NCBI GenBank assembly: GCA_943787705.1
Contig: CALSNL010000003.1
Span: 18,314-82,313, forward strand
DNA: 64,000 nt
Direction: 5' to 3'
DNA from: an uncultured Pseudomonadales bacterium
GTDB lineage: Bacteria; Pseudomonadota; Gammaproteobacteria; Pseudomonadales; UBA7434
Shown here: positions 4,578 through 47,036 of the stretch, piece after piece
How positions within the stretch are numbered: position 1 is the stretch's first letter
Layout of the letters: each line of letters starts with the position of its first letter
Translations under genes and position numbers: made by a program
Notes under the pieces: model-generated
Database searches by the model: none
What the model saw: the letters and a program-made list of their open reading frames with translations, nothing else
Told to the model about the DNA's origin: nothing

Positions 4578-7505
4578 ATGAATGCAGACGTATCCGCTTT
4601 TACATTAGTTAAAACAACCACTATTGAATCATTGAATATTCAGTACGAAGAATATGAGCATCTCACCACCGGTGCGCGTCATATTCATTTAGCGTCCGAC
4701 AACAATGAAAATGTATTTATGGTGGCACTGCGCACCGTCCCTACCGACTCCACTGGGGTGGCGCACATTCTTGAACATACAAGCTTATGTGGCAGTAAAC
4801 GCTTTCCGGTACGCGACCCTTTCTTTATGATGATTCGCCGTTCATTGAATACGTTTATGAATGCCTTTACCAGTTCAGACTGGACGGCTTACCCCTTTGC
4901 TAGCCAAAACAAAAAAGACTTTAACAACTTGTTAGAAGTTTATTTAGATGCGGTATTTTTTGCCCGCCTAGACCCTCTCGATTTCTCACAAGAAGGCCAT
5001 CGCTTAGAATTTGAAGAGCCTACTAATCCTGACAGTGATTTAGTTTATAAAGGCGTTGTCTTTAATGAAATGAAAGGCGCAATGAGTTCTATTTCTTCAC
5101 AGCTTTGGCAAGCGGTTGGCGAATCATTATTTCCTGATACCACTTATGGCGTTAATAGCGGCGGCGAACCCGAAAATATTACCGACTTAAGCTATGAGCA
5201 ACTACAAGAGTTTTATCAAACGCATTATCACCCTGACAATGCCACCTTTGTGACCTTTGGCGACATTAGCGCCAAAGAACATCAGTTTAAAATTCAAGAA
5301 TTTGCGCTTAGACATTTTGCGCCGTTAAACAAACGTATCGAAGTGCCGCTGCAAGACAAGTTTGATGATGCTATTCGAGTCACAAAACAGTTTCCAATTT
5401 CAGAAGAAGAAGCCCAAGGCGATAAAACCCATTTAGTGATGGCTTGGGTATTAGGCAATATTCGCGATCCGCTTGAGCTAATGTCTACGCATTTACTCTC
5501 TGCGGTATTATTTGAGAATAGCGCATCGCCGTTGCAACTCGCATTAGAAACTACCGACATAGGCACAGCGCCATCGCCATTATGTGGAATGGATGATTCA
5601 GGCTTAGAAATGGTATTTGTCTGCGGTGTTGAAGGCAGCAGCGAAGATAAACTTGAGCAACTAGAAGCCCTCGTTCTAAATGCCCTGCAAGGCGTTGCCG
5701 ATAACGGTGTCGATACAGCGCGCATGACGGCATTACTGGACCAACTAGAATTGCAACAACGAGAAGTCGGTGGTGGTGGCTATCCCTATGGCCTACAAAT
5801 AATGCTTTCATGCCTACCCACTGCCATTCATCGTGGTGATGCCGCAGCTGCATTAAATATTGATCCTATTCTTACTCAGCTTCGAGAATCAATTCAAGAT
5901 CCAAACTTTATTAAATCGTTAGTTAAGCGACTTTTAATAGACAATCAACACCGAGTGTCATTAGTAATGACGCCAGACACTAAGCTTAGCCAGCAACGTA
6001 TTGAAGAAGAAAAGCAAAAACTAGCGGCCATTAAAGCGACGCTAACTGAAGATGAAAAACAAAACATTATTACCACGGCAGCAGCTCTTAAAGAGCGCCA
6101 AACCGTTGATGATGATCCTGAGATTTTACCTAAAGTGGATTTAAGTGATATTCCCCCTGTCACCGATACTCCGACATTTGCAGAACAAAAGATTGCTAAT
6201 CGAACGGCCACTTTTTACCCTCAGGGCACTAATGGTCTTAGTTACCAGCAAGTCATTACCCAGTTACCAACATTAAACGAACAGCAGTCGGCGCTGCTTG
6301 GCATTCACAATCGTGTACTCACCGACTTAGGTGTGGGCAGTAAAGATTACCTCGCCACCCAAAACTGGCAGACGCAGGTCTGTGGTGGCATCAATGCACA
6401 GAGTAGTATTCGCAGCAATCTCAACAACGAACAAAACGTCAGCGGCTACTTTACGCTATCGGCTAAAGGCTTAAACATCCATAACGATGCCATTAGTGAT
6501 TTGCTCTATCAAACCTATCAACACGCTCGCTTTGATGAGCCACAACGTATTCGTGAACTCATTGCTCAGTCGCGTGCGCGCGCTGAACAGTCCGTCACAG
6601 GCAATGGTCATAGCTTAGCAATGGCGTTAGCTTCACAAGGTTTTAGCCCCACAGCCAAACTGAGTCACGCTAGTAGCGGTATTCTTGGCATACAGAATCT
6701 AAAAGCACTCGATGATTCCCTCGAAAACCCTGCATCGTTAAATGCGCTAACGGAATCATTAAGTGGCATTCATCAAGCTATTATTAGCAACCCACAGCAA
6801 TTTTTAATTATTGGCGAAGAGCAAGCCTCTGCCGGTATTCTGTCGCAGGTTGGGGATTTATGGAAAGATAGTACAGCCGCAACGAATAGCTTATTTACTT
6901 TACCGCCCATTAGAGAAAATACTCGCGAGCTATGGCTGTGCAATACACAGGTCAACTTTTGCGCCAAAGCCTACCAAACGGTTAATGGTGGTCATGAAGA
7001 TGCACCAGCCCTCACCGTTCTCGGCGGCGTATTACGTAATGGTTTTTTACACACCACTATTCGCGAACAAGGTGGCGCCTATGGCGGCGGTGCCAGTCAA
7101 GATTCGAGTATTGCGGCTTTCCGTTTTTATTCTTATCGTGATCCACGCCTTGGCGAAACATTGGATGACTTCGATAAATCCATTGCCTGGTTATTAGAAA
7201 AAGACCATGAATGGCGCGCGGTAGAAGAAGCAATTCTAGGTGTTATTAGCTCGCTAGATAAACCTTCCTCACCAGCGGGCACAGCAAAGCTGCATTTCCA
7301 TAACAATTTATTTGGCCGCACACCTGAATACCACAGCGCCTTTAGAGACGCAGTACTAAGCGTGACACAAGCCGACTTAAAACGAGTAGCAGAAAAATAC
7401 TTACGCCCAGAGCAAGCGAGCATTGGTGTGATTTCACATAAAGGGGAAGAAGCTAACTACAAGAAAGTGTGTGAGTCTTTAAACCTGAATATCAAACAGC
7501 TTTAA
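4578..7505 (+). CDS. Insulinase-family (M16C, presequence protease-like) metallopeptidase
   Basis: Inverted zincin 'HILEH', 'RDPFF', 'NAFTSSDWTAYPFAS', 'IREQGGAYGG' and 'SYRDP'. Confidence 0.9.
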   Translation: MNADVSAFTLVKTTTIESLNIQYEEYEHLTTGARHIHLASDNNENVFMVALRTVPTDSTGVAHILEHTSLCGSKRFPVRDPFFMMIRRSLNTFMNAFTSSDWTAYPFASQNKKDFNNLLEVYLDAVFFARLDPLDFSQEGHRLEFEEPTNPDSDLVYKGVVFNEMKGAMSSISSQLWQAVGESLFPDTTYGVNSGGEPENITDLSYEQLQEFYQTHYHPDNATFVTFGDISAKEHQFKIQEFALRHFAPLNKRIEVPLQDKFDDAIRVTKQFPISEEEAQGDKTHLVMAWVLGNIRDPLELMSTHLLSAVLFENSASPLQLALETTDIGTAPSPLCGMDDSGLEMVFVCGVEGSSEDKLEQLEALVLNALQGVADNGVDTARMTALLDQLELQQREVGGGGYPYGLQIMLSCLPTAIHRGDAAAALNIDPILTQLRESIQDPNFIKSLVKRLLIDNQHRVSLVMTPDTKLSQQRIEEEKQKLAAIKATLTEDEKQNIITTAAALKERQTVDDDPEILPKVDLSDIPPVTDTPTFAEQKIANRTATFYPQGTNGLSYQQVITQLPTLNEQQSALLGIHNRVLTDLGVGSKDYLATQNWQTQVCGGINAQSSIRSNLNNEQNVSGYFTLSAKGLNIHNDAISDLLYQTYQHARFDEPQRIRELIAQSRARAEQSVTGNGHSLAMALASQGFSPTAKLSHASSGILGIQNLKALDDSLENPASLNALTESLSGIHQAIISNPQQFLIIGEEQASAGILSQVGDLWKDSTAATNSLFTLPPIRENTRELWLCNTQVNFCAKAYQTVNGGHEDAPALTVLGGVLRNGFLHTTIREQGGAYGGGASQDSSIAAFRFYSYRDPRLGETLDDFDKSIAWLLEKDHEWRAVEEAILGVISSLDKPSSPAGTAKLHFHNNLFGRTPEYHSAFRDAVLSVTQADLKRVAEKYLRPEQASIGVISHKGEEANYKKVCESLNLNIKQL

Positions 7506-7537: not shown

Positions 7538-8017
7538 TTAAAAAATCCCTAGTTGCAAAGCAGAAGCCATGGTCTGACCAAGGGTTTTGCAAGCTTCTAG
7601 GGCGTCGGCGTCGACCTTGCCTTTAACTACCAAAGGATCGGCGACCTTTTTCATTGGGTAACCTTTTAATATTCTATCAACTTCTCTCACCGCCCCACTG
7701 CCATCATTACCCGCGCTAACTAATAACGCATAAGGAGTACATAGCTGTAAGGGTTGAGCAGCATGAAAGGTTCGATCAAAAAAATCTTTTAATGCACCCG
7801 ACATATAGCCGAAATTTTCTGGCGTACCAAAGAGTATGGCATCTGCGCATTCAAGGTCTTTAACATCCGCATCAAAAGCTCGTTTAACAATTAACTCAAC
7901 GTCAGCTTCTAATGCTGCACCGGCAGCAACCGCCTCAACTAATTGAGTCGTCGTTTCTGATTGGCTATGATAAATAATAAATAGCTTTTTCTTTTCCACG
8001 ACAACTCTTTTAATCAA
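7538..8017 (-). CDS. Flavodoxin / NAD(P)H-dependent FMN reductase-like protein
   Basis: 'IIYHSQS', 'GTPENFGYMSGALKDFFDR' and 'SAGNDGSGA'. Confidence 0.8.
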   Translation of the reverse strand: MIKRVVVEKKKLFIIYHSQSETTTQLVEAVAAGAALEADVELIVKRAFDADVKDLECADAILFGTPENFGYMSGALKDFFDRTFHAAQPLQLCTPYALLVSAGNDGSGAVREVDRILKGYPMKKVADPLVVKGKVDADALEACKTLGQTMASALQLGIF

Positions 8018-23492: not shown

Positions 23493-24365
23493 GTGAAAAC
23501 ATTTATCGTGACATGGCTATTAAGAGTAGTCGCCCTCCTACCCCTATCGGTTGCTCGGACAATCGGTAGAGGAATTGCTTATTTATTATCGTTGACTAAC
23601 AATGATATTTATCGGCTAAGCCGCATCAACATTGCGTTAACACATCCACAACTGGACAGTGATGCTCTTGATAAAATAACAAAAGACAGTGTTGCGAGTA
23701 CCGTTGTTAATGCTTTTGAAATGCCCATTGTCTGGCAGCAAGATAACGACTGGATTGTCAAGAAAACGGTATCTATTGAAGGTGAAGCCCACCTAACTTC
23801 AGCCCTTGGCAGCAAAAAAGGTGTCATTATTATTGCGCCACATATAGGCAACTGGGAAGCACTTGGAAGACATTTGCCTGTGCATGCACCCACAACTAAC
23901 CTTTACCAGCCACCCAAGCTTACAGCGCTAGAGAATATCGTTAGATCTGGTCGAGAGCGTTCGGGTGCCAAACTTGTGCCGACGAATCAACGGGGTGTTG
24001 CTGCTTTATTAAAAGCGCTAAGACGAGGCGAGTTAATTGGTGTTTTGCCCGATCAGGTGCCGCCTAAAAACTCTGGTGTGTTCGCCCCCTTCTATAACGT
24101 GCCTGCTTATACGATGACGTTGGTTTATAGTTTGATTCAAAAAACCGACTGTCGTGTGGTGTTGGGTTCTGCGTTACGTGTTCCTGGTGGTTTTAAAGTG
24201 ATTTATGCTGAGGCGCCTGAGGCTATTTACAGTGCGGATCAGGCGGTGTCTTTAAGGGCGTTGAATTTGATGGTTGAGATGGCTATTAATAATGATGTGG
24301 CACAATATCAATGGGCTTATAAGCGGTTTAAGAAACAGCCTGAGGGTGTTGAGAAGCCTTATTGA
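23493..24365 (+). CDS. Lipid A / lysophospholipid acyltransferase (LpxL/HtrB family)
   Basis: 'APHIGNWE', 'LPDQVP', 'APFY' and 'QYQWAYKRFK'. Confidence 0.88.
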   Translation: MKTFIVTWLLRVVALLPLSVARTIGRGIAYLLSLTNNDIYRLSRINIALTHPQLDSDALDKITKDSVASTVVNAFEMPIVWQQDNDWIVKKTVSIEGEAHLTSALGSKKGVIIIAPHIGNWEALGRHLPVHAPTTNLYQPPKLTALENIVRSGRERSGAKLVPTNQRGVAALLKALRRGELIGVLPDQVPPKNSGVFAPFYNVPAYTMTLVYSLIQKTDCRVVLGSALRVPGGFKVIYAEAPEAIYSADQAVSLRALNLMVEMAINNDVAQYQWAYKRFKKQPEGVEKPY

Positions 24366-24426
24366 TTTGAGGATGAGCCGTTAGTATTTAGTGGTGATGG
24401 TGCATTCCGAGGGTTTGCTTTTTTTG

Positions 24427-25716
24427 TTTGAGTTTTAAGGTCAAAGTCGTCGGGGGTGGCCCGACAGCCAGTAACTTTTTGTATTCGCTTCGCTCACCCT
24501 ACGGGGCGCCCTTCAGGCGCAGCGCAAACTACGCTGTGCAACACAAAAAAAGTAACCAAAAATGCCGCAACCTTAACGGCGAAGCTTGACCACGACGGGT
24601 GCATCTCGCAGTGTTTTCTGTCCAGCAGTTCCAGAGAGATTATCGCCAAGCGGTATAGGGGGTAATTTTTTCAAACTATAACAGTCACGTTACATTCTGA
24701 TGTTTCGCTTTTCTTTTTAAGTTTTAAATTCAAGACCGTCGGGGGTGGCCCGACAGCCAGTCACTTTTTGTCTACAGCAACAAAAAGTAACCAAAAAATG
24801 CCGTAAGCTTAACGGCGAAGCTTAACCACGACGGGTGCATCTCGTAGGGTTTTCTGTCCAGCAGTTCCAGAGAGATTATCGCCAAGCGGTATAGGGGGTA
24901 ATTTTTTAAACTATAACAGTCACGTTATATTCTGATGTTTTGCTTTTCTTTTTAAGTTTTAAATTCAAGGTCGTCGGGGGTGGCCCGACAGCCAGTCACT
25001 TTTTGTCTACAGCAACAAAAAGTAACCAAAAAATGCCGTAAGCTTAACGGCGAAGCTTAACCACGACGGGTGCATCTCGTAGGGTTTTCTGTCCAGCAGT
25101 TCCAGAGAGATTATCGCCAAGCGGTATAGGGGGTACTTTTTTTGTGCTGCACTTGACATCAAGCTTTACGTCTAAGTTTACCTTTTAGCGAAATAGTAGT
25201 TCTACTAGTTATAAGCCTTTGTTTAGCTCTCACTCTTTCACCTTCTATCCCACACTACGCTCAATAATTCTTTTGAGTAAAAGATTATTCTTTTGAGCTG
25301 CTGCTCTTCATTGCTCTTTTTTCTCTGCTCGGCTCTTCTCTTATCTTTTTTGAGCGGCATGCGGAGCTCAATAGTAAAAGCCGGCCGTTAGGCACGGTTT
25401 TTACTTGTTCTAAAATAAAAAGAAGTCTACTGAACTTGTTCGTTGTAGCCTCATTGTGTTTTGAAAAGTCTGAGGAATCAGAATGATATTGGCTGGAGGC
25501 GAGCTCAGATATTGACGAACAACTAAGTCGAGTGAAAAACGTTTTCGTAGGCGCTGCTAAGGTGTACTGGATAAGACTACCCCAAAGCGAATAGGTTATA
25601 TCGGGGTCAATCTTCGTCAGATTGTGTGCTTTCTTTTGGTTACTTTTCTTTGCACAAGCAAAGAAAAGTGACTGGCGTGTCGGGCCACCCCCGACGGTCC
25701 TGATTGAAAACTCAAA
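24427..25716. mobile_element. Composite non-coding repeat element, copy 1 (three tandem units + conserved core + inverted end). Probable non-autonomous MITE/REPIN-like element.
   Basis: Units at 24441-24664, 24730-24900 and 24965-25135. Inverted terminal copy at 25628-25716. Near-identical second copy at 44459-45847. Mobility is inferred only from the dispersed duplication. Confidence 0.7.
24441..25135. repeat. Tandem array of three ~170-bp structured units separated by homologous ~65-bp AT-rich leaders (period 235 bp without the insert)
   Basis: Unit: TCAAG..CGTCGGGGGTGGCCCGACAGCCAGTCACTTTTTGT...ACAAAAAGTAACC...GCCAAGCGGTATAGGGGGTA. Confidence 0.97.
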
Positions 25717-25765
25717 AAAAATCAAAATCTCAAAGAAGGAAAAAAACTATATATAATACAAAACC

Positions 25766-25788: not shown

Positions 25789-26520
25789 TTAAGCCTCATC
25801 CTCCTCCTTTAACCAAAGACACTCCCCGCCACTCTTCTTATTAATCGTCGCCAACAACGCCTCATGCGCCGCCAACTCATCAGCATTCGCCGCAATCACT
25901 CGCAAATTCTGACTACCATCCAAACGAATAATCCCCGTCTGAGCTTTTGCACTTTCCGAACCCGACTCAGCCTCGCCCCCTAAATACAAAGAAGTCTGAC
26001 CACCCGTCATCATCAGATAAACGTCAGCTAAAATCTCAGCATCTAATAATGCACCATGCAACTCTCGCTTAGCATTATCAACCGCATAACGCTTACAAAG
26101 CGCATCAAGATTATTTTTTTGACCCGGATGCTTTTTCCGCGCTAAAACTAAACTGTCTATCACACCACAAATACTACTGGTTTTTTTAACCTTACTGCCC
26201 GCTAACTTTAACTCGTGATCAATAAAACCAATATCAAACGGCGCGTTATGAATAATTAATTCCGCACCATCAATGAAATCTAAAAACGCCTCCATCACAT
26301 TTGCAAATAAAGGCTTATCCGATAAAAACTCATTGCTAATGCCGTGAACTTCTAAAGCGCCTTGATCAATCTCTCGCTCAGGCTGAATATACTGATGATA
26401 GTGCTTGCCCGTTAATCGCCGATTAACTAATTCAACACAGCCAATCTCAATAATTCGATGACCTTGTGACGGCTCTAAACCCGTGGTTTCTGTATCGAGT
26501 ACTATTTGTCGTGTCGCCAT
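25789..26520 (-). CDS. dnaQ: DNA polymerase III epsilon subunit
   Basis: 'RQIVLDTETTGL', 'HNAPFDIGF' and 'HGALLDAEILADVYLMMTGGQ'. Confidence 0.97.
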   Translation of the reverse strand: MATRQIVLDTETTGLEPSQGHRIIEIGCVELVNRRLTGKHYHQYIQPEREIDQGALEVHGISNEFLSDKPLFANVMEAFLDFIDGAELIIHNAPFDIGFIDHELKLAGSKVKKTSSICGVIDSLVLARKKHPGQKNNLDALCKRYAVDNAKRELHGALLDAEILADVYLMMTGGQTSLYLGGEAESGSESAKAQTGIIRLDGSQNLRVIAANADELAAHEALLATINKKSGGECLWLKEEDEA

Positions 26521-43277: not shown

Positions 43278-44450
43278 ATGAGCTTTCACCCTCCTCAACG
43301 CACACTAATGGGCCCCGGCCCTTCTGATGTTAATCCTCGTATTCTTAGCGCACTAGGGCAGCCAACTATTGGCCATTTAGACCCTAGCTTTATACAGCTA
43401 ATGGATGAGATTAAAGACCTACTGCAATATGTGTTTCAAACCAAAAATGAATTAACTTTACCAGTCTCCGCACCAGGCTCGGCTGGCATGGAAACTTGCT
43501 TCGTTAACTTAATTGAAGCGGGCGAAACAGTAATAGTGTGTCAGAACGGCGTGTTTGGTGGGCGCATGAAAGAAAACGTAACGCGCTGCGGTGCGCATGC
43601 CGTAATGGTAGAGGATGAATGGAGTAAAGCCGTTGATCTTGAAAAAGTAACAGCAGCGATTAAAGCTAATCCTAATGCAAAAGCCCTCGCCTTTGTTCAT
43701 GCAGAGACATCAACCGGCGTGCAAAGTGATGCCGCGGCATTGTGTGCATTAGCACGCGATGCCAATATGTTATCCATTGTCGATACGGTAACGGGATTAG
43801 CAGGCATTAATGTTGACGTTGATGGCTGGGGTGCCGATGCAGTTTATTCAGGCACACAGAAATGCCTATCGTGCATTCCTGGCATTTCGCCAGTGACTTT
43901 TAGTGCGCGTGCGATTGACGTTATCACTAACAGAAAGACGCCGGTACAGAGTTGGTTCTTAGATTTGAATTTAGTAATGGGTTACTGGGGCAAAGGTGCT
44001 AAGCGCGCTTACCACCACACTGCGCCGGTTAATTCGCTTTATGCTCTGCATGAGTCACTGACTATTGTGAAAGAGGAAGGCCTACAGGCGAGCTGGGATA
44101 GACACTTGCATAACCATCTTGCATTACGTGCAGGACTTGAAGCGATGGGTTTATCTTTGATTGTTGATGAGGCTGATCGTTTACCGCAATTGAATTTAGT
44201 GGGTGTGCCTGAGGGTATTGATGAGGCGCAAGTACGAGTGCAGTTGTTGGAGCAGTTTGATCTTGAGATTGGTGCTGGGCTTGGGGCATTGGCGGGTAAG
44301 GTTTGGCGGATTGGCTTGATGGGGTATGGGTCTAATTCTACGAATGTTAGGCTTTGCTTGAGTGCGTTGGAGACTTGTTTGATTTCGCAGGGACATGGGA
44401 TTACGGGTGGGGATGCGGTTGCGGCGGCTAATCGGGTTTATGCTGGTTAG
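43278..44450 (+). CDS. Alanine-glyoxylate / serine-pyruvate aminotransferase (class V PLP enzyme)
   Basis: 'RTLMGPGPS', 'VHAETSTGV', PLP lysine in 'SGTQKCL', 'YHHTAP' and 'WRIGLMG'. Confidence 0.92.
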   Translation: MSFHPPQRTLMGPGPSDVNPRILSALGQPTIGHLDPSFIQLMDEIKDLLQYVFQTKNELTLPVSAPGSAGMETCFVNLIEAGETVIVCQNGVFGGRMKENVTRCGAHAVMVEDEWSKAVDLEKVTAAIKANPNAKALAFVHAETSTGVQSDAAALCALARDANMLSIVDTVTGLAGINVDVDGWGADAVYSGTQKCLSCIPGISPVTFSARAIDVITNRKTPVQSWFLDLNLVMGYWGKGAKRAYHHTAPVNSLYALHESLTIVKEEGLQASWDRHLHNHLALRAGLEAMGLSLIVDEADRLPQLNLVGVPEGIDEAQVRVQLLEQFDLEIGAGLGALAGKVWRIGLMGYGSNSTNVRLCLSALETCLISQGHGITGGDAVAAANRVYAG

Positions 44451-44458
44451 GTTTAGGG

Positions 44459-45847
44459 CTTTTAGCTTTATCTGATAGTATTCTTATATTCTGGTTTTTT
44501 GCTTATTTTTTTAAGTTTTAAATTCAAGACCGTCGGGGGTGGCCCGACATGCCAGTCACTTTTTTTATTCGCTTCGCTCACCCTACGGGGCGCCCTTCAG
44601 GCGCAGCGCAAACTACGCTGTGCTACAGCAAAAAAAAGTCACCAAAAAATGCCGTAAGCTTAACGGCGAAGCTTAACCACGACGGGTGCATCTCGCAGTG
44701 TTTTCTGTCCAGCAGTTTCAGAGGGTTTATCGCCAAGCGGTATAGAGGAAATTCAAGGTCGTCGGGGGTGGCCCGACATGCCAGTCACTTTTTGTATTCG
44801 CTTCGCTCACCCTACGGGGCGCCCTTCAGGCGCAGCGCAAACTACGCTGTGCAACAGCAAAAAAAGTAACCAAAAATGCCGTAAGCTTAACGGCGAAGCT
44901 TAACCACGACGGGTGCATCTCGTAGGGTTTTCTGTCCAGCAGTTTCAGAGAGATTATCGCCAAGCGGTATAGGGGGTACTTTTTTAAACTTTAAGAGTAA
45001 TGTTGTATTCTGGATGTTTGCTTCTGTTTTTTAAGTTTTAAATTCAAGATCGTCGGGGGTGGCCCGACAGCCAGTCACTTTTTGTCTACAGCAACAAAAA
45101 GTAACCAAAAAATGCCGTAAGCTTAACGGCGAAGCTTAACCACGACGGGTGCATCTCGTAGGGTTTTCTGTCCAGCAGTTCCAGAGAGATTATCGCCAAG
45201 CGGTATAGGGGGTACTTTTTTTGTGCTGCACTTACATCAAGCTTTACGTCTAAGTTTATCCTTTCAGCGAAATAATAGTTCTACTAGTTATAAGCCTTTG
45301 TTTAGCTCTCACTCTTTCACTTTCTAACCCACACTACGCTCAATAATTTTTTAGAGTAAAAGATTATTCTTTTGAGCTGCTGCTCTTCATTGCTCTTTTT
45401 TCTCTGCTCGGTTCTTCTATTATCTTTTTTGAGCGGCATGCGGAGCTCAATAGTAAAAGCCGGCCGTTAGGCACGGTTTTTACTTGTTCTAAAATAAAAA
45501 GAAGTCTACTGAACTTGTTCGTTGTAGCCTCATTGTGTTTTGAAAAGTCTGCGGAATCAGAATGATATTGGCTGGAGGCGAGCTCAGATATTGACGAACA
45601 ATTAAGTCGAGTGAAAAACGTTTTCGTAGGCGCTGCTAAGGTGTACTGAATAAAACCACCCCAAAGCGAATAGGTTATATCGGGGTCAATCTTCGTCAGA
45701 TTGTGTGCTTTCTTTTGGTTACTTTTCTTTGCACAAGCAAAGAAAAGTGACTGGCATGTCGGGCCACCCCCGACGGTCTTGATTGAAAACTCAAACAAAT
45801 AAACTAAAAAACCAGAATATAAAAACACTATCAAATAAGGCTTAAAG
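44459..45847. mobile_element. Composite non-coding repeat element, copy 2
   Basis: Units at 44524-44748, 44753-44978 and 45044-45214. Core 45215-45706. Inverted end 45707-45847, whose outer part mirrors the left leader 44459-44523, giving an imperfect TIR of ~140 bp. Confidence 0.7.
44524..45214. repeat. Tandem array of three structured units; units 1 and 2 carry the 56-nt insert
   Basis: Same unit as 24441-25135. Unit 3 differs from copy-1 unit 3 at one position. Confidence 0.97.
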
Positions 45848-45860
45848 ATCTAGACTCTGG

Positions 45861-47036
45861 CTATCGCGCCAAATGCGCCATACAAGCCTCCAACCCATTC
45901 ACCGTCATAGGAAACATATTCCCATCAAAAATATCACTCATCATGCGCGTCGACTGCGCATAATGCCACTCACTCTCAGCAATCGGATTAATCCAAGCAA
46001 AGCGTTGATAACCCGCCAACAAACGCCGCATCCAAACCTCACCCGACTCCTCATTCCAATGCTCAACACTGCCACCATCAGACATAATCTCATAAGGCGA
46101 CATCGCCGCATCACCCACTACAATCACTTTATAATCTTGTGAGTATTTATTCAAAACCTCAACCAACGGCGTAGATTCCTGCCGCCGACGAATATTGTCC
46201 TTCCACACCGATTCATAAATACAATTGTGAAAGTAAAAAAACTCAAGATGCTTAAACTCGGTTCGCACCGCACTGAATAACTGCTGACAAGCCGTTATGT
46301 GATAATCCATCGATCCGCCAATATCAAAAAAGATCAACACCTTCACCGCATTATGCCGCTCAGGAACCATTTTAATATCTAATAGCCCAGCATTTTTTGC
46401 CGTTGAGCTAATGGTGTCGTCTAAATCTAATTGGTCTTCTGCACCTGAACGCGCAAACTTGCGTAAACGCCTTAAAGCTACTTGAATATTACGTGTGCCA
46501 AGGGCTGTGTCGCCGTCTAAATTTTTAAACTCTCGTTTTTCCCAAACCTTTACGCCTTTTTGATGCTTGCCCTCTCCCCCTACACGGATACCTTCGGGAT
46601 GAAAACCGTTATTGCCAAATGGTGAAGTACCGCCTGTGCCTATCCATTTATTACCACCTTGATGGCGTTTTTCTTGCTCGGCTAATCGCTCTTTAAATTG
46701 CTCAATCAATTCTTCTAAACTTTCAAATGATTGCAGCTTATCTAACTCTTCTTGAGTCAGCTCTTTTTGAAAGGCATCGCGTATCCAATCATCCGGAATT
46801 AAGGCCTCAAGCATGCCGTCCATTGATTCAAGACCATTAAAAAAGGCATCAATAGCACGATCAAATTTATCGAAGTGTTTTTCATCTTTAACAAGAATAG
46901 TACGCGACAGGAAATAGAATTTTTCGCGATCGGCAAATACCGTCGACGTCTTTAACGCTTCTAGTAAGTCTAAAAACTCACCTAGCGTAACTGGCACACC
47001 ATAGCGACGAAGCGTTTCGAAATAAGATAGCAACAT
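45861..47036 (-). CDS. vWA domain-containing protein (CoxE-like)
   Basis: 'HQGGNKWIGTGGTSPFG', MIDAS-like 'FDIGGSMD', 'YFHNC' and 'VGDAAMSPYE'. Confidence 0.85.
   Translation of the reverse strand: MLLSYFETLRRYGVPVTLGEFLDLLEALKTSTVFADREKFYFLSRTILVKDEKHFDKFDRAIDAFFNGLESMDGMLEALIPDDWIRDAFQKELTQEELDKLQSFESLEELIEQFKERLAEQEKRHQGGNKWIGTGGTSPFGNNGFHPEGIRVGGEGKHQKGVKVWEKREFKNLDGDTALGTRNIQVALRRLRKFARSGAEDQLDLDDTISSTAKNAGLLDIKMVPERHNAVKVLIFFDIGGSMDYHITACQQLFSAVRTEFKHLEFFYFHNCIYESVWKDNIRRRQESTPLVEVLNKYSQDYKVIVVGDAAMSPYEIMSDGGSVEHWNEESGEVWMRRLLAGYQRFAWINPIAESEWHYAQSTRMMSDIFDGNMFPMTVNGLEACMAHLAR

What the first reader, a model, noticed from the sequence alone, without database searches (positions are those of the whole stretch)
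44160..46140. Symmetric mutational halo: genes flanking the element become G/T-rich at wobble positions on the strand pointing into it
Seen (hand counts of G/T-ending codons): aminotransferase last 77 codons, 70/77, versus 27/50 in its first 50 codons. vWA gene last 80 codons, 75/80. Acyltransferase last 82 codons, 69/82. dnaQ last 76 codons, 67/76. The 3' end of the M16 peptidase (~7340-7505), also convergent but with no element, is mostly A/C-ending. The + strand therefore flips from G/T-rich to C/A-rich across each element, fading over a few hundred bp while the proteins remain intact. Established: C->T and A->G are the deamination signatures of single-stranded DNA. Inference: the strand whose 3' end points at the element is repeatedly single-stranded, as expected from recurrent breaks or nicks at the element followed by 5'->3' resection, or from local strand-displacement or error-prone synthesis. 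The element may be a persistent site of DNA processing that mutagenises its neighbours.
Basis: partly seen in the sequence, partly recalled or inferred. Interest (0 to 1): 0.88.

Follow-up and report, generated by a model that had tools for sequence, protein, structure and literature searches.

The report
G/T-rich halos flanking repeat elements
About sixty copies of a non-coding, hairpin-ended repeat in a marine bacterium are each bordered on both sides by a few hundred bases in which the DNA strand running toward the repeat has been driven to G and T, rewriting the silent positions of neighbouring genes; the pattern is real and apparently undescribed, while its cause, most likely repeated strand processing at the repeat's ends, is still inferred.

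Summary

**Scale.** The element at window 44451-45855 has about 60 copies in the 2.6 Mb genome. Over all 112 flanks, the strand running 5'->3' into the element has G+T 0.64 next to the element. This decays exponentially (length constant 336 bp) to 0.50.

**Controls.** Element-free convergent gene ends show no bias (0.56 vs 0.81 G/T at third positions). Nine element-free orthologues show none either. Two other species' assemblies show the same halo.

**Geometry.** The halo follows the element end. It does not depend on:
- gene direction;
- the element's internal orientation;
- replication direction.

Truncated ends appear one-sided.

**Spectrum and dynamics.** Changes are mainly A->G and C->T, with some transversions to G/T. 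Cross-species synonymous transitions are reduced in the halo, not raised. Element interiors evolve in concert.

**Reading.** Best explanation (0.45): recurrent polar strand processing at the hairpin termini. Selection on strand composition is not excluded. Six literature searches found no description of this pattern.

The parts
43278..44450 (+). Class-V aminotransferase gene. Its last ~100 codons (about 44140-44450) form the left halo core.
   Evidence: Pfam Aminotran_5. Last 77 codons 70/77 G/T-ending, first 50 codons 27/50. Last-80-codon third-position G+T is 0.42-0.55 in 9 element-free orthologues, against 0.91 here.
44451..45855 (.). Composite non-coding repeat element, 1405 bp. It starts directly after the aminotransferase stop codon and ends 5 bp before the VWA stop codon.
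   Evidence: About 60 copies in the genome. No Rfam match. No ORF with a Pfam family: the 156-aa ORF gave 0 families.
44451..44566 (+). Left terminal inverted repeat. It carries the CGTC-tagged hairpin at 44531-44549.
   Evidence: 116-nt arms, 82% complementary to 45740-45855. The hairpin core has 147 exact copies in the genome.
44520..45221 (+). Tandem internal modules, each opening with the hairpin (44531-44549, 44760-44778, 45051-45069). Each carries a terminator-like hairpin on the minus strand.
   Evidence: Direct repeat families D1-D3. Terminator-like sites at 44651-44667, 44878-44894 and 45114-45130 on the minus strand.
45221..45740 (.). 520-bp internal region, conserved among copies. 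Some copies lack about 140 bp of it.
   Evidence: BLAST of this region against the genome. 33 full-length copies have mean pairwise identity 0.929.
45740..45855 (-). Right terminal inverted repeat, with the hairpin at 45757-45775 on the minus strand.
45861..47036 (-). VWA (CoxE-like) gene. Its last ~100 codons (45861 to about 46200) form the right halo core.
   Evidence: Pfam VWA_CoxE. Last 80 codons 75/80 G/T-ending. GC skew on the + strand is -0.37 to -0.44.
24394..25720 (.). Second copy of the element in the window (G000:C3:42707-44033).
   Evidence: BLAST locus. Flank G+T is 0.63 on the left and 0.66 on the right, inward strand.
23493..24365 (+). Lipid-A acyltransferase gene, with a halo at its 3' end.
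   Evidence: Pfam Lip_A_acyltrans. Last 82 codons 70/82 G/T-ending.
25789..26520 (-). DnaQ-like (RNase_T family) exonuclease gene, with a halo at its 3' end.
   Evidence: Pfam RNase_T. Last 76 codons 68/76 G/T-ending.
4578..7505 (+). M16 peptidase gene. It is convergent with 7538-8017 and has no element, so it serves as the internal negative control.
   Evidence: Pfam M16 families. Last 55 codons 20/55 G/T-ending (hand count).

Best explanation
**What the element is.** Each end of a 0.8-1.4 kb non-coding composite repeat is a recurrent, polar site of DNA strand processing. The repeat has 116-nt inverted termini built around a CGTC-tagged REP-like hairpin.

**Proposed mechanism (inferred, not shown).**
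1. The element is cut or nicked at its hairpin termini, or excised.
2. The flank strand that begins 5' at the cut is resected.
3. The partner strand, which ends 3' at the element, is left single-stranded or is resynthesised.
4. The interior is copied back from the sister chromosome or from another copy.

Over evolutionary time the 3'-ending strand loses its amino bases (C->T, A->G, some A->T and C->G) and becomes G/T-rich. The effect is strongest at the end of the element and decays with a length constant of about 340 bp. Silent sites of roughly 100 neighbouring genes are rewritten while the proteins stay intact.

**Shown.** The geometry, its independence from transcription and replication, the derived state, the spectrum, and the concerted evolution of the interiors.

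**Inferred.** The cut, the resection, and single-strandedness as the cause.
For: 1. The halo is element-anchored and symmetric. In 112 flanks, inward-strand G+T falls from 0.64 to 0.50, with C 0.21->0.125, A 0.29->0.23, G 0.22->0.29 and T 0.28->0.35. The fit gives lambda 336 +/- 20 bp.
2. It is the same on both sides of the oriented element: 0.649 vs 0.640 in the first 100 bp.
3. It is the same whichever way the replication fork travels: rise of 0.109 vs 0.117.
4. It stays on the inward strand when the neighbouring gene points away. In 12 such genes, third-position inward G+T is 0.81 (n=58), 0.62 (n=421) and 0.49, against a baseline of 0.43. 7 of the 8 tested are real by Pfam.
5. It is derived. 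Orthologues in 9 element-free relatives score 0.42-0.55, against 0.91 here. At 4 sites where a relative has the element and this genome has none or a remnant, A>G is 32 vs G>A 14, and C>T is 27 vs T>C 7.
6. The halo lies outside the element only. Truncated ends score 0.65 vs 0.53, 0.74 vs 0.52, 0.60-0.67 vs 0.56 and 0.56 vs 0.47. Outer hairpin units are degenerate while inner ones are intact.
7. Interiors are homogenised within a genome. In 5 of 5 orthologous pairs the orthologue is not the closest copy, with ranks 16/33, 19/58, 7/33, 21/58 and 6/30. This is as expected if interiors are recopied.
8. Both amino bases are lost. The G/A and T/C ratios at 2-fold sites each shift about 4-4.5 fold.
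9. RecJ is present and RecC was not found in any of 21 genomes of the genus. That is compatible with 5'->3' resection starting at the end itself.
10. Genomes with few hairpin copies have weak halos: mean about +0.03 in 14 flanks.
Against: - No break, nick, excision product or empty-site allele was seen. Contigs of 3 public runs carry identical flanks, and no joint skips the element.
- No nuclease or transposase for the element was found. There was no Y1 transposase, no TnpB and no reverse transcriptase. The one DDE transposase inside a copy belongs to a separate IS481-family insertion with its own ends.
- Synonymous transitions between species are fewer in the halo (0.111 and 0.135) than in control gene ends (0.175 and 0.192).
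- Polarised third-position changes show no excess toward G/T: A>G 10 vs G>A 15, and C>T 5 vs T>C 15. A moderate, ongoing hot spot would raise divergence. The data need either a very strong bias with a class of constrained sites, or selection.
- The pyrimidine fraction at 4-fold sites falls (0.575->0.471), so deamination alone does not give the composition.
- Some flanks lack a halo, for example 0.44-0.46 at 5 flanks.
Confidence: 0.45

Rival explanations
1. **Selection on strand composition.** The flanks are kept G/T-rich on the inward strand, which makes them C/A-rich and G-poor in any RNA read outward from or through the element. This would be useful, for instance, as Rho-loading zones that stop read-through and antisense transcription between convergent genes separated by the element. 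It could also serve another strand-specific DNA or RNA property.
For: - Synonymous transitions are suppressed in the halo while transversions are not: ts 0.111 vs 0.175, tv 0.086 vs 0.101.
- Reverse changes per site are about 2.3-fold rarer in the halo: G>A 15/456 vs 36/464, and T>C 15/624 vs 52/962. Forward rates are not raised. This is the pattern expected from selection or a conversion bias.
- At 4-fold sites G gains most (0.198->0.404), as a 'more C, less G' rule for outward RNA would give.
- 36 of 56 elements lie between convergent ORFs.
- REP/BIME elements sit at gene 3' ends (PMC3733652, passages read).
Against: - It requires selection on hundreds of silent sites at each of about 112 flanks.
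- A is depleted relative to T at 4-fold sites (A 0.227->0.125, T 0.350->0.415). A C-rich, G-poor RNA rule does not predict that.
- The same bias is seen in non-coding flanks and in degenerate outer units of the element itself.
- Element-free convergent pairs need insulation too but show nothing.
- No outward promoter was found above chance: 2 promoter-like sites vs 2.7 expected.
- Amino-acid positions shift slightly the same way, as mutation pressure would give.
Confidence: 0.17
2. **Nick-initiated, error-prone resynthesis of the inward strand.** A strand-specific nick at the CGTC foot of the hairpin leaves the inward strand with a 3' end. That end is chewed back and refilled toward the element by a polymerase that tends to misinsert G and T (G.T and T.G mispairs, or oxidised dGTP) and escapes mismatch repair. 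No double-strand break or long single strand is needed.
For: - The halo is polar and one-sided at each end.
- Its short range (lambda 336 bp) fits repair patches.
- Changes go toward both keto bases and include transversions. In one search, A>T is 12 vs T>A 3 and C>G is 4 vs G>C 1. G is in excess at 4-fold sites.
- CGTC and GTAG tetranucleotides at REP feet are cleavage sites of REP-specific tyrosine transposases in other bacteria (PMC3733652, passages read).
Against: - No HUH/Y1 enzyme was found in this genome or in the two other assemblies with many copies.
- It does not by itself explain the concerted evolution of the interiors.
- It faces the same difficulty as the best explanation with reduced transition divergence.
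Confidence: 0.18
3. **Fossil of a past burst.** The halo was written once, at or soon after insertion or during a past period of activity. It is now merely decaying under ordinary mutation.
For: - Element sites are old. 44 relative flanks map to sites that carry the element in this genome too.
- Polarised changes since the split run slightly away from G/T: over all sites G>A 77 vs A>G 52, and T>C 64 vs C>T 31.
- Remnant hairpins keep a halo.
Against: - Neutral decay predicts normal reverse rates. The observed rates are less than half of those far from the element.
- Transition divergence is below that of control gene ends, so something still holds the sites.
- A halo of similar strength is present in three species.
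- At the CAXAHI_L086 site the relative with the element has the stronger halo.
Confidence: 0.1
4. **Transcription- or replication-coupled asymmetry.** Stalled RNA polymerases, R-loops or forks at the hairpins expose one strand.
For: - The non-template strand of convergent genes is the G/T-rich one.
- Hairpins and terminator-like sites are present.
- The sign change across the element resembles that at a replication terminus.
Against: - Genes that point away from the element carry the halo on their template strand.
- Halo strength is equal on the fork-arrival and fork-departure sides: 0.109 vs 0.117.
- Both sides of one locus are affected, although a fork passes in one direction.
- Element-free convergent pairs show nothing.
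Confidence: 0.05

Closest known systems
CGTC-tagged REP sequences (Di Nocera, De Gregorio and Rocco 2013, PMC3733652; abstract and passages read)
   Same: - A short GC-rich stem-loop that begins with CGTC, has a 5-nt loop and is followed by a CCA-containing tail.
- Copy number over 100.
- Placed next to the 3' ends of convergent or same-direction ORFs, sometimes touching the stop codon.
- No dedicated transposase.
   Different: - Here the hairpins are the ends and module heads of a 0.8-1.4 kb composite with 116-nt inverted termini.
- The stem is 6 bp, not 8-9 bp with A-T pairs at its base.
- The word 'skew' does not occur in that paper, so no flank bias is reported there.
REPINs mobilised by RAYT tyrosine transposases; BIMEs of enterobacteria
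   Same: Inverted pairs or clusters of REP hairpins, non-coding, multi-copy and intergenic.
   Different: - No Y1_Tnp gene was found in this genome or in the two other high-copy assemblies.
- The spacer is about 1 kb and itself conserved.
- No flank halo is known to me for REPINs or BIMEs. That is recall, plus searches that listed none.
Strand-coordinated mutation clusters at resected double-strand breaks (yeast, cancer kataegis; PMC3628087, PMC3521656, PMC6786661 seen as search listings and abstracts only)
   Same: Mutations of one base type on the 3'-ending strand, switching strand across the break, over hundreds of bases to kilobases. They are explained by damage to single-stranded DNA after 5'->3' resection.
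   Different: - Those are somatic or experimental clusters, mostly at C.
- Here the state is fixed, near saturation, affects both A and C, recurs at about 60 defined loci and is shared by species.
- No break has been shown here.
Heavy-strand compositional asymmetry of vertebrate mitochondrial DNA (recalled; PMC9561281 seen as a listing)
   Same: C->T and A->G accumulate on the strand that spends time single-stranded, making that strand G/T-rich at silent sites.
   Different: That asymmetry is replication-driven and genome-wide. This one is local, mirror-symmetric about an element and independent of replication direction.
Leakage of repeat-induced point mutation (RIP) from repeats into neighbouring single-copy genes in fungi (recalled, not searched)
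   Same: A repeated element mutagenises its unique neighbours over about 1 kb.
   Different: RIP is a eukaryotic premeiotic process. It makes C->T on both strands in a dinucleotide context, with no strand switch.

Membership tests
CGTC-type REP | CGTC tetranucleotide at one end of a short palindromic stem-loop | tested here: met
   The core is CGTCGGGGGTGGCCCGACA. The CGTC overlaps the 5' arm of the stem GTCGGG/CCCGAC.
CGTC-type REP | Stem of 8-9 bp with A-T pairs in first and second position, and a loop of 4-5 nt (as described in PMC3733652) | tested here: not met
   The stem is 6 bp with no A-T pairs at its base. The loop of 5 nt (GGTGG) does fit.
CGTC-type REP | High copy number, and position close to the 3' ends of convergent or unidirectional ORFs | tested here: met
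   147 exact hairpins. 36 of 56 loci lie between convergent ORFs and 0 between divergent ORFs, against 13.6% each genome-wide.
REPIN/RAYT system | A cognate Y1 (IS200/IS605-type) RAYT transposase gene in the genome, flanked by the REPs | tested here: not met
   PF01797 gave 0 matches in G000 (97.8% complete), G004 and G007. The Y1 genes of other genus members are not flanked by this hairpin.
MITE (non-autonomous DDE transposon) | Terminal inverted repeats, no coding capacity, many copies | tested here: met
   116-nt inverted termini, no ORF with a family, 60 loci.
MITE (non-autonomous DDE transposon) | Target-site duplication, and an autonomous relative sharing the termini | tested here: inconclusive
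   The ends are blurred by degenerate outer units, so no duplication could be read. The only DDE transposase nearby has different termini.
Diversity-generating retroelement | Reverse transcriptase plus a template repeat matching the variable 3' end of the target gene, with adenine-specific changes | tested here: not met
   No RVT_1 in the genome. 112 unrelated flanks are affected, and both A and C are lost.
Break-associated single-strand mutation clusters | Strand-coordinated changes that switch strand at the lesion site and decay with distance | tested here: met
Break-associated single-strand mutation clusters | A physical break or resected end at the site | not testable with these tools
   Only assembled contigs and about 40 raw reads were available. 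They showed no informative ends.

The most novel reading that the evidence does not exclude
The CGTC-hairpin termini are recognised by a dedicated strand-specific activity. This could be a nickase, or end processing coupled to deamination or to a biased polymerase. It continuously drives about half a kilobase of neighbouring chromosome toward G/T on one strand in every lineage that carries many copies.

That would be a natural, site-anchored, strand-specific sequence drive in a bacterial chromosome. It would rewrite the silent sites of about 100 genes, and its flank state may have been co-opted as a transcriptional insulator.
Probability: 0.25. Interest if true: 0.92.

Novelty: new variant of a known kind. 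Interest (0 to 1): 0.8.

Why it matters
- **Mutational reading.** If correct, this is a natural bacterial counterpart of break-associated strand-coordinated hypermutation. It is fixed over evolutionary time at defined loci. It would show that a selfish or structural repeat can reshape the codon usage of about 100 neighbouring genes and locally override genome-wide composition.
- **A marker.** The halo marks sites of recurrent DNA processing that can be read from sequence alone.
- **A link.** It ties concerted evolution of dispersed repeats to damage in their unique flanks.
- **Selective reading.** If instead the halo is selected, it reveals a strand-composition signal of unexpected length and strength next to REP-like elements.
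- **Practical points.** Such halos distort codon-usage, GC-skew and horizontal-transfer scans. The repeats break short-read assemblies exactly where the halo lies.

Tried and rejected
**Tried and led nowhere, or considered and rejected**
- Rfam scan of 44300-46000 at E<=1: no family.
- Protein coding in the element: ORFs only by chance; the 156-aa ORF has no Pfam family.
- RAYT partner: none in this genome. Y1 genes of relatives are not flanked by the hairpin. One G003 locus has a variant hairpin about 180 nt from a Y1 gene that has its own different repeats.
- IS481-family transposase inside one copy: a separate 1286-bp insertion with its own 42-nt ends.
- Chi-like clustering in the halo: the E. 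coli Chi octamer and the 10 most strand-skewed octamers occur 0-4 times in 56 kb of halo, against 1.4-2.1 expected. No enrichment.
- Replication fork stalling: rejected by equal halos on both sides.
- Neighbour-gene transcription: rejected by the outward-pointing genes.
- DGR, retron or group II intron: no reverse transcriptase. TnpB-guided cutting: no TnpB.
- RecBCD: RecC was not found in any of 21 genus genomes, so it does not discriminate. An AddA-like 1222-aa ORF scores below the family cut-off.
- Public reads: 16 marine metagenome runs from 9 studies hold at least 84% of the sampled words. In the 4 runs laid, flanks are identical or differ at single sites. No joint skips the whole element. 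The raw-read run gave only 40 partly fitting reads. This gives no evidence on activity.
- 'Young insertion without halo' (JABIQF_L076): not usable. The flank is nearly identical in both genomes and moderately G/T-rich, at 0.59.
- Three-taxon parsimony on 8 flanks: counts are small and can be misled by parallel changes.
- Solo-end test: of 19 hairpin-like matches at up to 4 edits, I treat 5, at four loci, as real remnants. C1:205468, C1:678772 and C4:67120/67225 have independent support from BLAST or alignment. C1:115758 was picked partly because of its halo, so it is circular. The other 14 look like chance matches with no halo.
- Literature: six full-text searches listed no paper describing compositional halos around bacterial repeats. 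Supplementary files were not consulted.

Full report
**1. What is at the coordinates**

The window is G000:C3:18314-82313 of a 2.6 Mb, 43% G+C genome in 7 contigs. A class-V aminotransferase gene (43278-44450, +) and a VWA gene (45861-47036, -) converge on a 1405-bp non-coding element at 44451-45855.

The element consists of:
- 116-nt terminal inverted repeats, 82% complementary;
- two to three tandem modules;
- a 520-bp internal region.

Each terminus and each module opens with the hairpin CGTCGGGGGTGGCCCGACA (6-bp stem, 5-nt loop). This core occurs 147 times exactly in the genome. No Rfam family matches, and no ORF in the element has a Pfam family.

**2.

| Gene end | My count | Reader |
|---|---|---|
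| Aminotransferase, last 77 codons | 70/77 | 70/77 |
| Aminotransferase, first 50 codons | 27/50 | 27/50 |
| VWA gene, last 80 codons | 75/80 | 75/80 |
| Acyltransferase, last 82 codons | 70/82 | 69/82 |
| DnaQ-like gene, last 76 codons | 68/76 | 67/76 |

The element-free M16 peptidase end is 20/55 G/T-ending (hand count). The skew profile flips across the element. GC skew is +0.39 to +0.53 at 44100-44499 and -0.37 to -0.44 at 45800-46199, and the AT skew runs the opposite way.

**3. It is genome-wide**

- BLAST finds 60 loci of the element. 56 are longer than 600 bp and were used; 4 short remnants were set aside.
- Averaged over their 112 flanks, the strand running 5'->3' into the element has G+T 0.64 in the first 100 bp. 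This falls smoothly to 0.50. C drops from 0.21 to 0.125 and A from 0.29 to 0.23. G rises from 0.22 to 0.29 and T from 0.28 to 0.35.
- An exponential fit gives amplitude 0.172, length constant 336 +/- 20 bp and baseline 0.498.
- 76 of 112 flanks have G+T >= 0.60 in 300 bp, against 3.4% of all windows.
- 61 of the genome's 126 most extreme 200-bp segments lie within 600 bp of an element.
- The signal sits at third codon positions: 0.81 within 200 bp, against a baseline of 0.53-0.55. Second positions hardly move, and first positions shift slightly.

**4.

- *Last-80-codon third-position G+T:*
  - 0.807 in 55 element-adjacent genes;
  - 0.569 in 1072 genes far from any element;
  - 0.558 in 244 element-free convergent pairs.
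- *Aminotransferase orthologues:*
  - 0.42-0.55 in 9 relatives without the element at that place;
  - 0.79 and 0.65 in two close relatives whose contigs break at the gene end;
  - 0.91 here.
- *Other assemblies:* a scan of public genomes with the hairpin core found it in two other assemblies of marine gammaproteobacteria (records JABIQF01 and CAXAHI01), mostly at contig ends. Their 19 and 31 flanks show the same halo, 0.68 and 0.66 falling to 0.50. Unrelated single matches in Gallionellaceae show none.
- *Shared sites:* 44 relative flanks map to sites that also carry the element in this genome, so the insertions are shared and old.
- *Low-copy genomes:* in four genus members with only 2-8 hairpin copies the flank bias is weak, about +0.03 on average over 14 flanks.

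**5. What the halo follows**

- *Not gene direction.* 36 of 56 elements lie between convergent ORFs and none between divergent ones (13.6% each genome-wide, P = 3e-18). Twenty flanks face a gene that points away. In the 12 long ones the inward strand, here the template strand, still has third-position G+T 0.81 (n=58), 0.62 (n=421) and 0.49, against a baseline of 0.43. 7 of the 8 tested are real genes by Pfam.
- *Not the element's internal orientation.* First-100-bp G+T is 0.649 vs 0.640.
- *Not replication direction.* The rise is 0.109 on the side where the inward strand is the leading strand and 0.117 on the other.
- *One-sided.* At truncated or remnant ends the bias lies only on the 5' (CGTC) side of the hairpin: 0.65 vs 0.53, 0.74 vs 0.52, 0.60-0.67 vs 0.56 and 0.56 vs 0.47. 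One of these was picked partly by its halo.
- *Degenerate outer units.* Outside the innermost intact hairpin the element's own outer units are degenerate in the same direction.

Each terminus therefore carries its own outward-facing, strand-specific halo.

**6. Spectrum**

- In the last 60 codons, A at 2-fold purine sites falls from 0.62 to 0.26. C at 2-fold pyrimidine sites falls from 0.28 to 0.086. Each is a shift of about 4-4.5 fold in the ratio.
- At 4-fold sites the composition goes from A .227, C .225, G .198, T .350 to A .125, C .056, G .404, T .415. The pyrimidine fraction thus drops from 0.575 to 0.471.
- At four sites a relative has the element and this genome has none or a remnant. 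The differences 150-600 bp out are A>G 32 vs G>A 14, C>T 27 vs T>C 7, A>T 12 vs T>A 3, and C>G 4 vs G>C 1.
- C is lost most after T (retention 0.09), less after C (0.20) and least after G (0.34). Codon preference may contribute to this.

The drive is from amino bases (A, C) to keto bases (G, T). It consists mostly of transitions, with a minority of transversions.

**7. Dynamics**

- *Divergence falls toward the element.* Third-position divergence between this genome and the two relatives falls toward the element: 0.10, 0.20, 0.23 and 0.27 against about 0.25-0.27 for one relative, and 0.18, 0.22, 0.23 and 0.24 against 0.27-0.30 for the other. Only transitions fall.
- *It is not a gene-end effect.* In 104 control genes the transition divergence is flat up to the stop codon (0.175, 0.192, 0.180). 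In 16 element-adjacent genes it is 0.111, 0.135 and 0.180.
- *No net flow toward G/T.* Changes on 8 flanks polarised with three genomes show A>G 10/188, G>A 15/456, C>T 5/82 and T>C 15/624 in the halo. Far from the element the figures are 34/580, 36/464, 38/354 and 52/962.

My inference: a moderate continuing hot spot would raise divergence, and a dead fossil would decay at normal rates. Neither fits. The sites are held at G/T in all three lineages. The cause is either a very strong continuing bias acting on free sites, with the residual A/C sites constrained, or selection or conversion bias.

**8. The interiors**

Copies within this genome are 93% identical on average across 33 full-length internal regions. 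Copies at orthologous sites in the relatives are no closer to their orthologue than to any other copy, with ranks 16/33, 19/58, 7/33, 21/58 and 6/30. The interiors are therefore homogenised or replaced within each genome, while the unique flanks keep their history.

**9. What the element is**

- The hairpin fits the CGTC-tagged REP type of Di Nocera et al. 2013. That type has a CGTC tag, a short loop and a CCA-like tail, sits at the 3' ends of convergent ORFs and has no dedicated transposase (passages read). The stem here is shorter than described.
- The genome has no Y1/RAYT transposase, no TnpB and no reverse transcriptase.
- The one DDE transposase found inside a copy is a separate IS481-family insertion with its own ends.
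- RecJ is present. RecC was found in none of 21 genus genomes.
- Promoter-like sites are not above chance. Each module carries a terminator-like hairpin facing outward.

**10. Explanation**

The geometry is best met by recurrent processing at the hairpin termini that leaves or remakes the 3'-ending flank strand, with the interior recopied from another template. The geometry to be explained is:
- mirror symmetry;
- polarity tied to the hairpin;
- independence from transcription and replication;
- a halo outside the element and a fresh interior.

It remains an inference, because no cut, nick, enzyme or empty site was seen and the divergence data do not show a plain hot spot.

- *Selection on strand composition,* for instance for Rho loading on outward RNA, explains the suppressed reversions. 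It does not explain the loss of A relative to T, and it requires selection on thousands of silent sites.
- *A nick-and-refill model* explains the polarity and the keto-ward transversions.
- *Transcription and replication models* are largely excluded.

**11. Known or new**

Six full-text searches found no report of such halos. The paper on CGTC REPs does not mention skew. The nearest known processes are break-associated strand-coordinated mutation clusters and the mitochondrial heavy-strand bias. The nearest known element types are REP/BIME and MITE repeats. I file the finding as a new variant of locally strand-asymmetric sequence evolution, with an open mechanism.

Supplementary files of papers were not available.

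Noticed in passing
G000:C1 about 677419-678704 (locus L109 1120-2405): A 1286-bp IS481-family insertion sequence sits inside one copy of the element. It encodes a 393-aa HTH/LZ_Tnp_IS481/rve transposase and has its own 42-nt inverted ends. It is single-copy in this genome. A 77% identical copy in G006 lies about 50 bp from an element-like hairpin hit.
   Followed up: yes
whole genus (21 genomes): RecC (PF04257) was found in none of 21 genomes of the genus. This genome has RecJ and a 1222-aa AddA-like ORF that scores below the family cut-off. End resection here may not be RecBCD-type.
   Followed up: partly
loci L022, L038, L039, L045-L047, L052, L056, L072-L074, L082-L084, L087, L089: The exact 19-nt hairpin core also occurs once per contig in several Gallionellaceae genomes (Sideroxydans, Gallionella, Ferriphaselus), with no flank halo. 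This is probably one conserved sequence shared by descent. What it is was not examined.
   Followed up: no
locus L100 (G003:C1:2462177-2465512), about 1160-2100: A Y1_Tnp (RAYT-like) gene is flanked by its own inverted GGGGTCAGAGCCC-type repeats. It is followed about 130-180 nt on by a variant of the CGTC hairpin whose loop holds an extra ~45 nt.
   Followed up: partly
genome-wide, outside elements: The octamer GAGCAGGG is 87:4 on leading vs lagging strand, and several related G-rich octamers are also strongly skewed. These are candidate chromosome-orienting (KOPS-like) words. The E. coli Chi octamer is only 60:26.
   Followed up: no
window 44651-44667, 44878-44894, 45114-45130 (minus strand); 45462-45478 (plus strand): Each internal module carries a terminator-like hairpin (GCCGTTAAGCTTACGGC followed by a T run) facing the left end. 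The internal region has one on the plus strand. In all, 8 terminator-like sites were found against 2.1 expected.
   Followed up: no
G000:C1:113340-115776 and C1:205376-205486: Two sites carry only a degenerate hairpin remnant directly after a gene. They still show a G/T-rich gene end (last-80-codon third-position G+T 0.90 at the first). They look like ghosts of lost elements.
   Followed up: partly
window 44424-45895 in public runs X1, X9, X15: Summed contig depth over the element is roughly 30-300 times that of the flanks. The species' flanks are near-identical in marine metagenomes from 2014 to 2022. The repeat breaks short-read contigs at the gene ends.
   Followed up: partly
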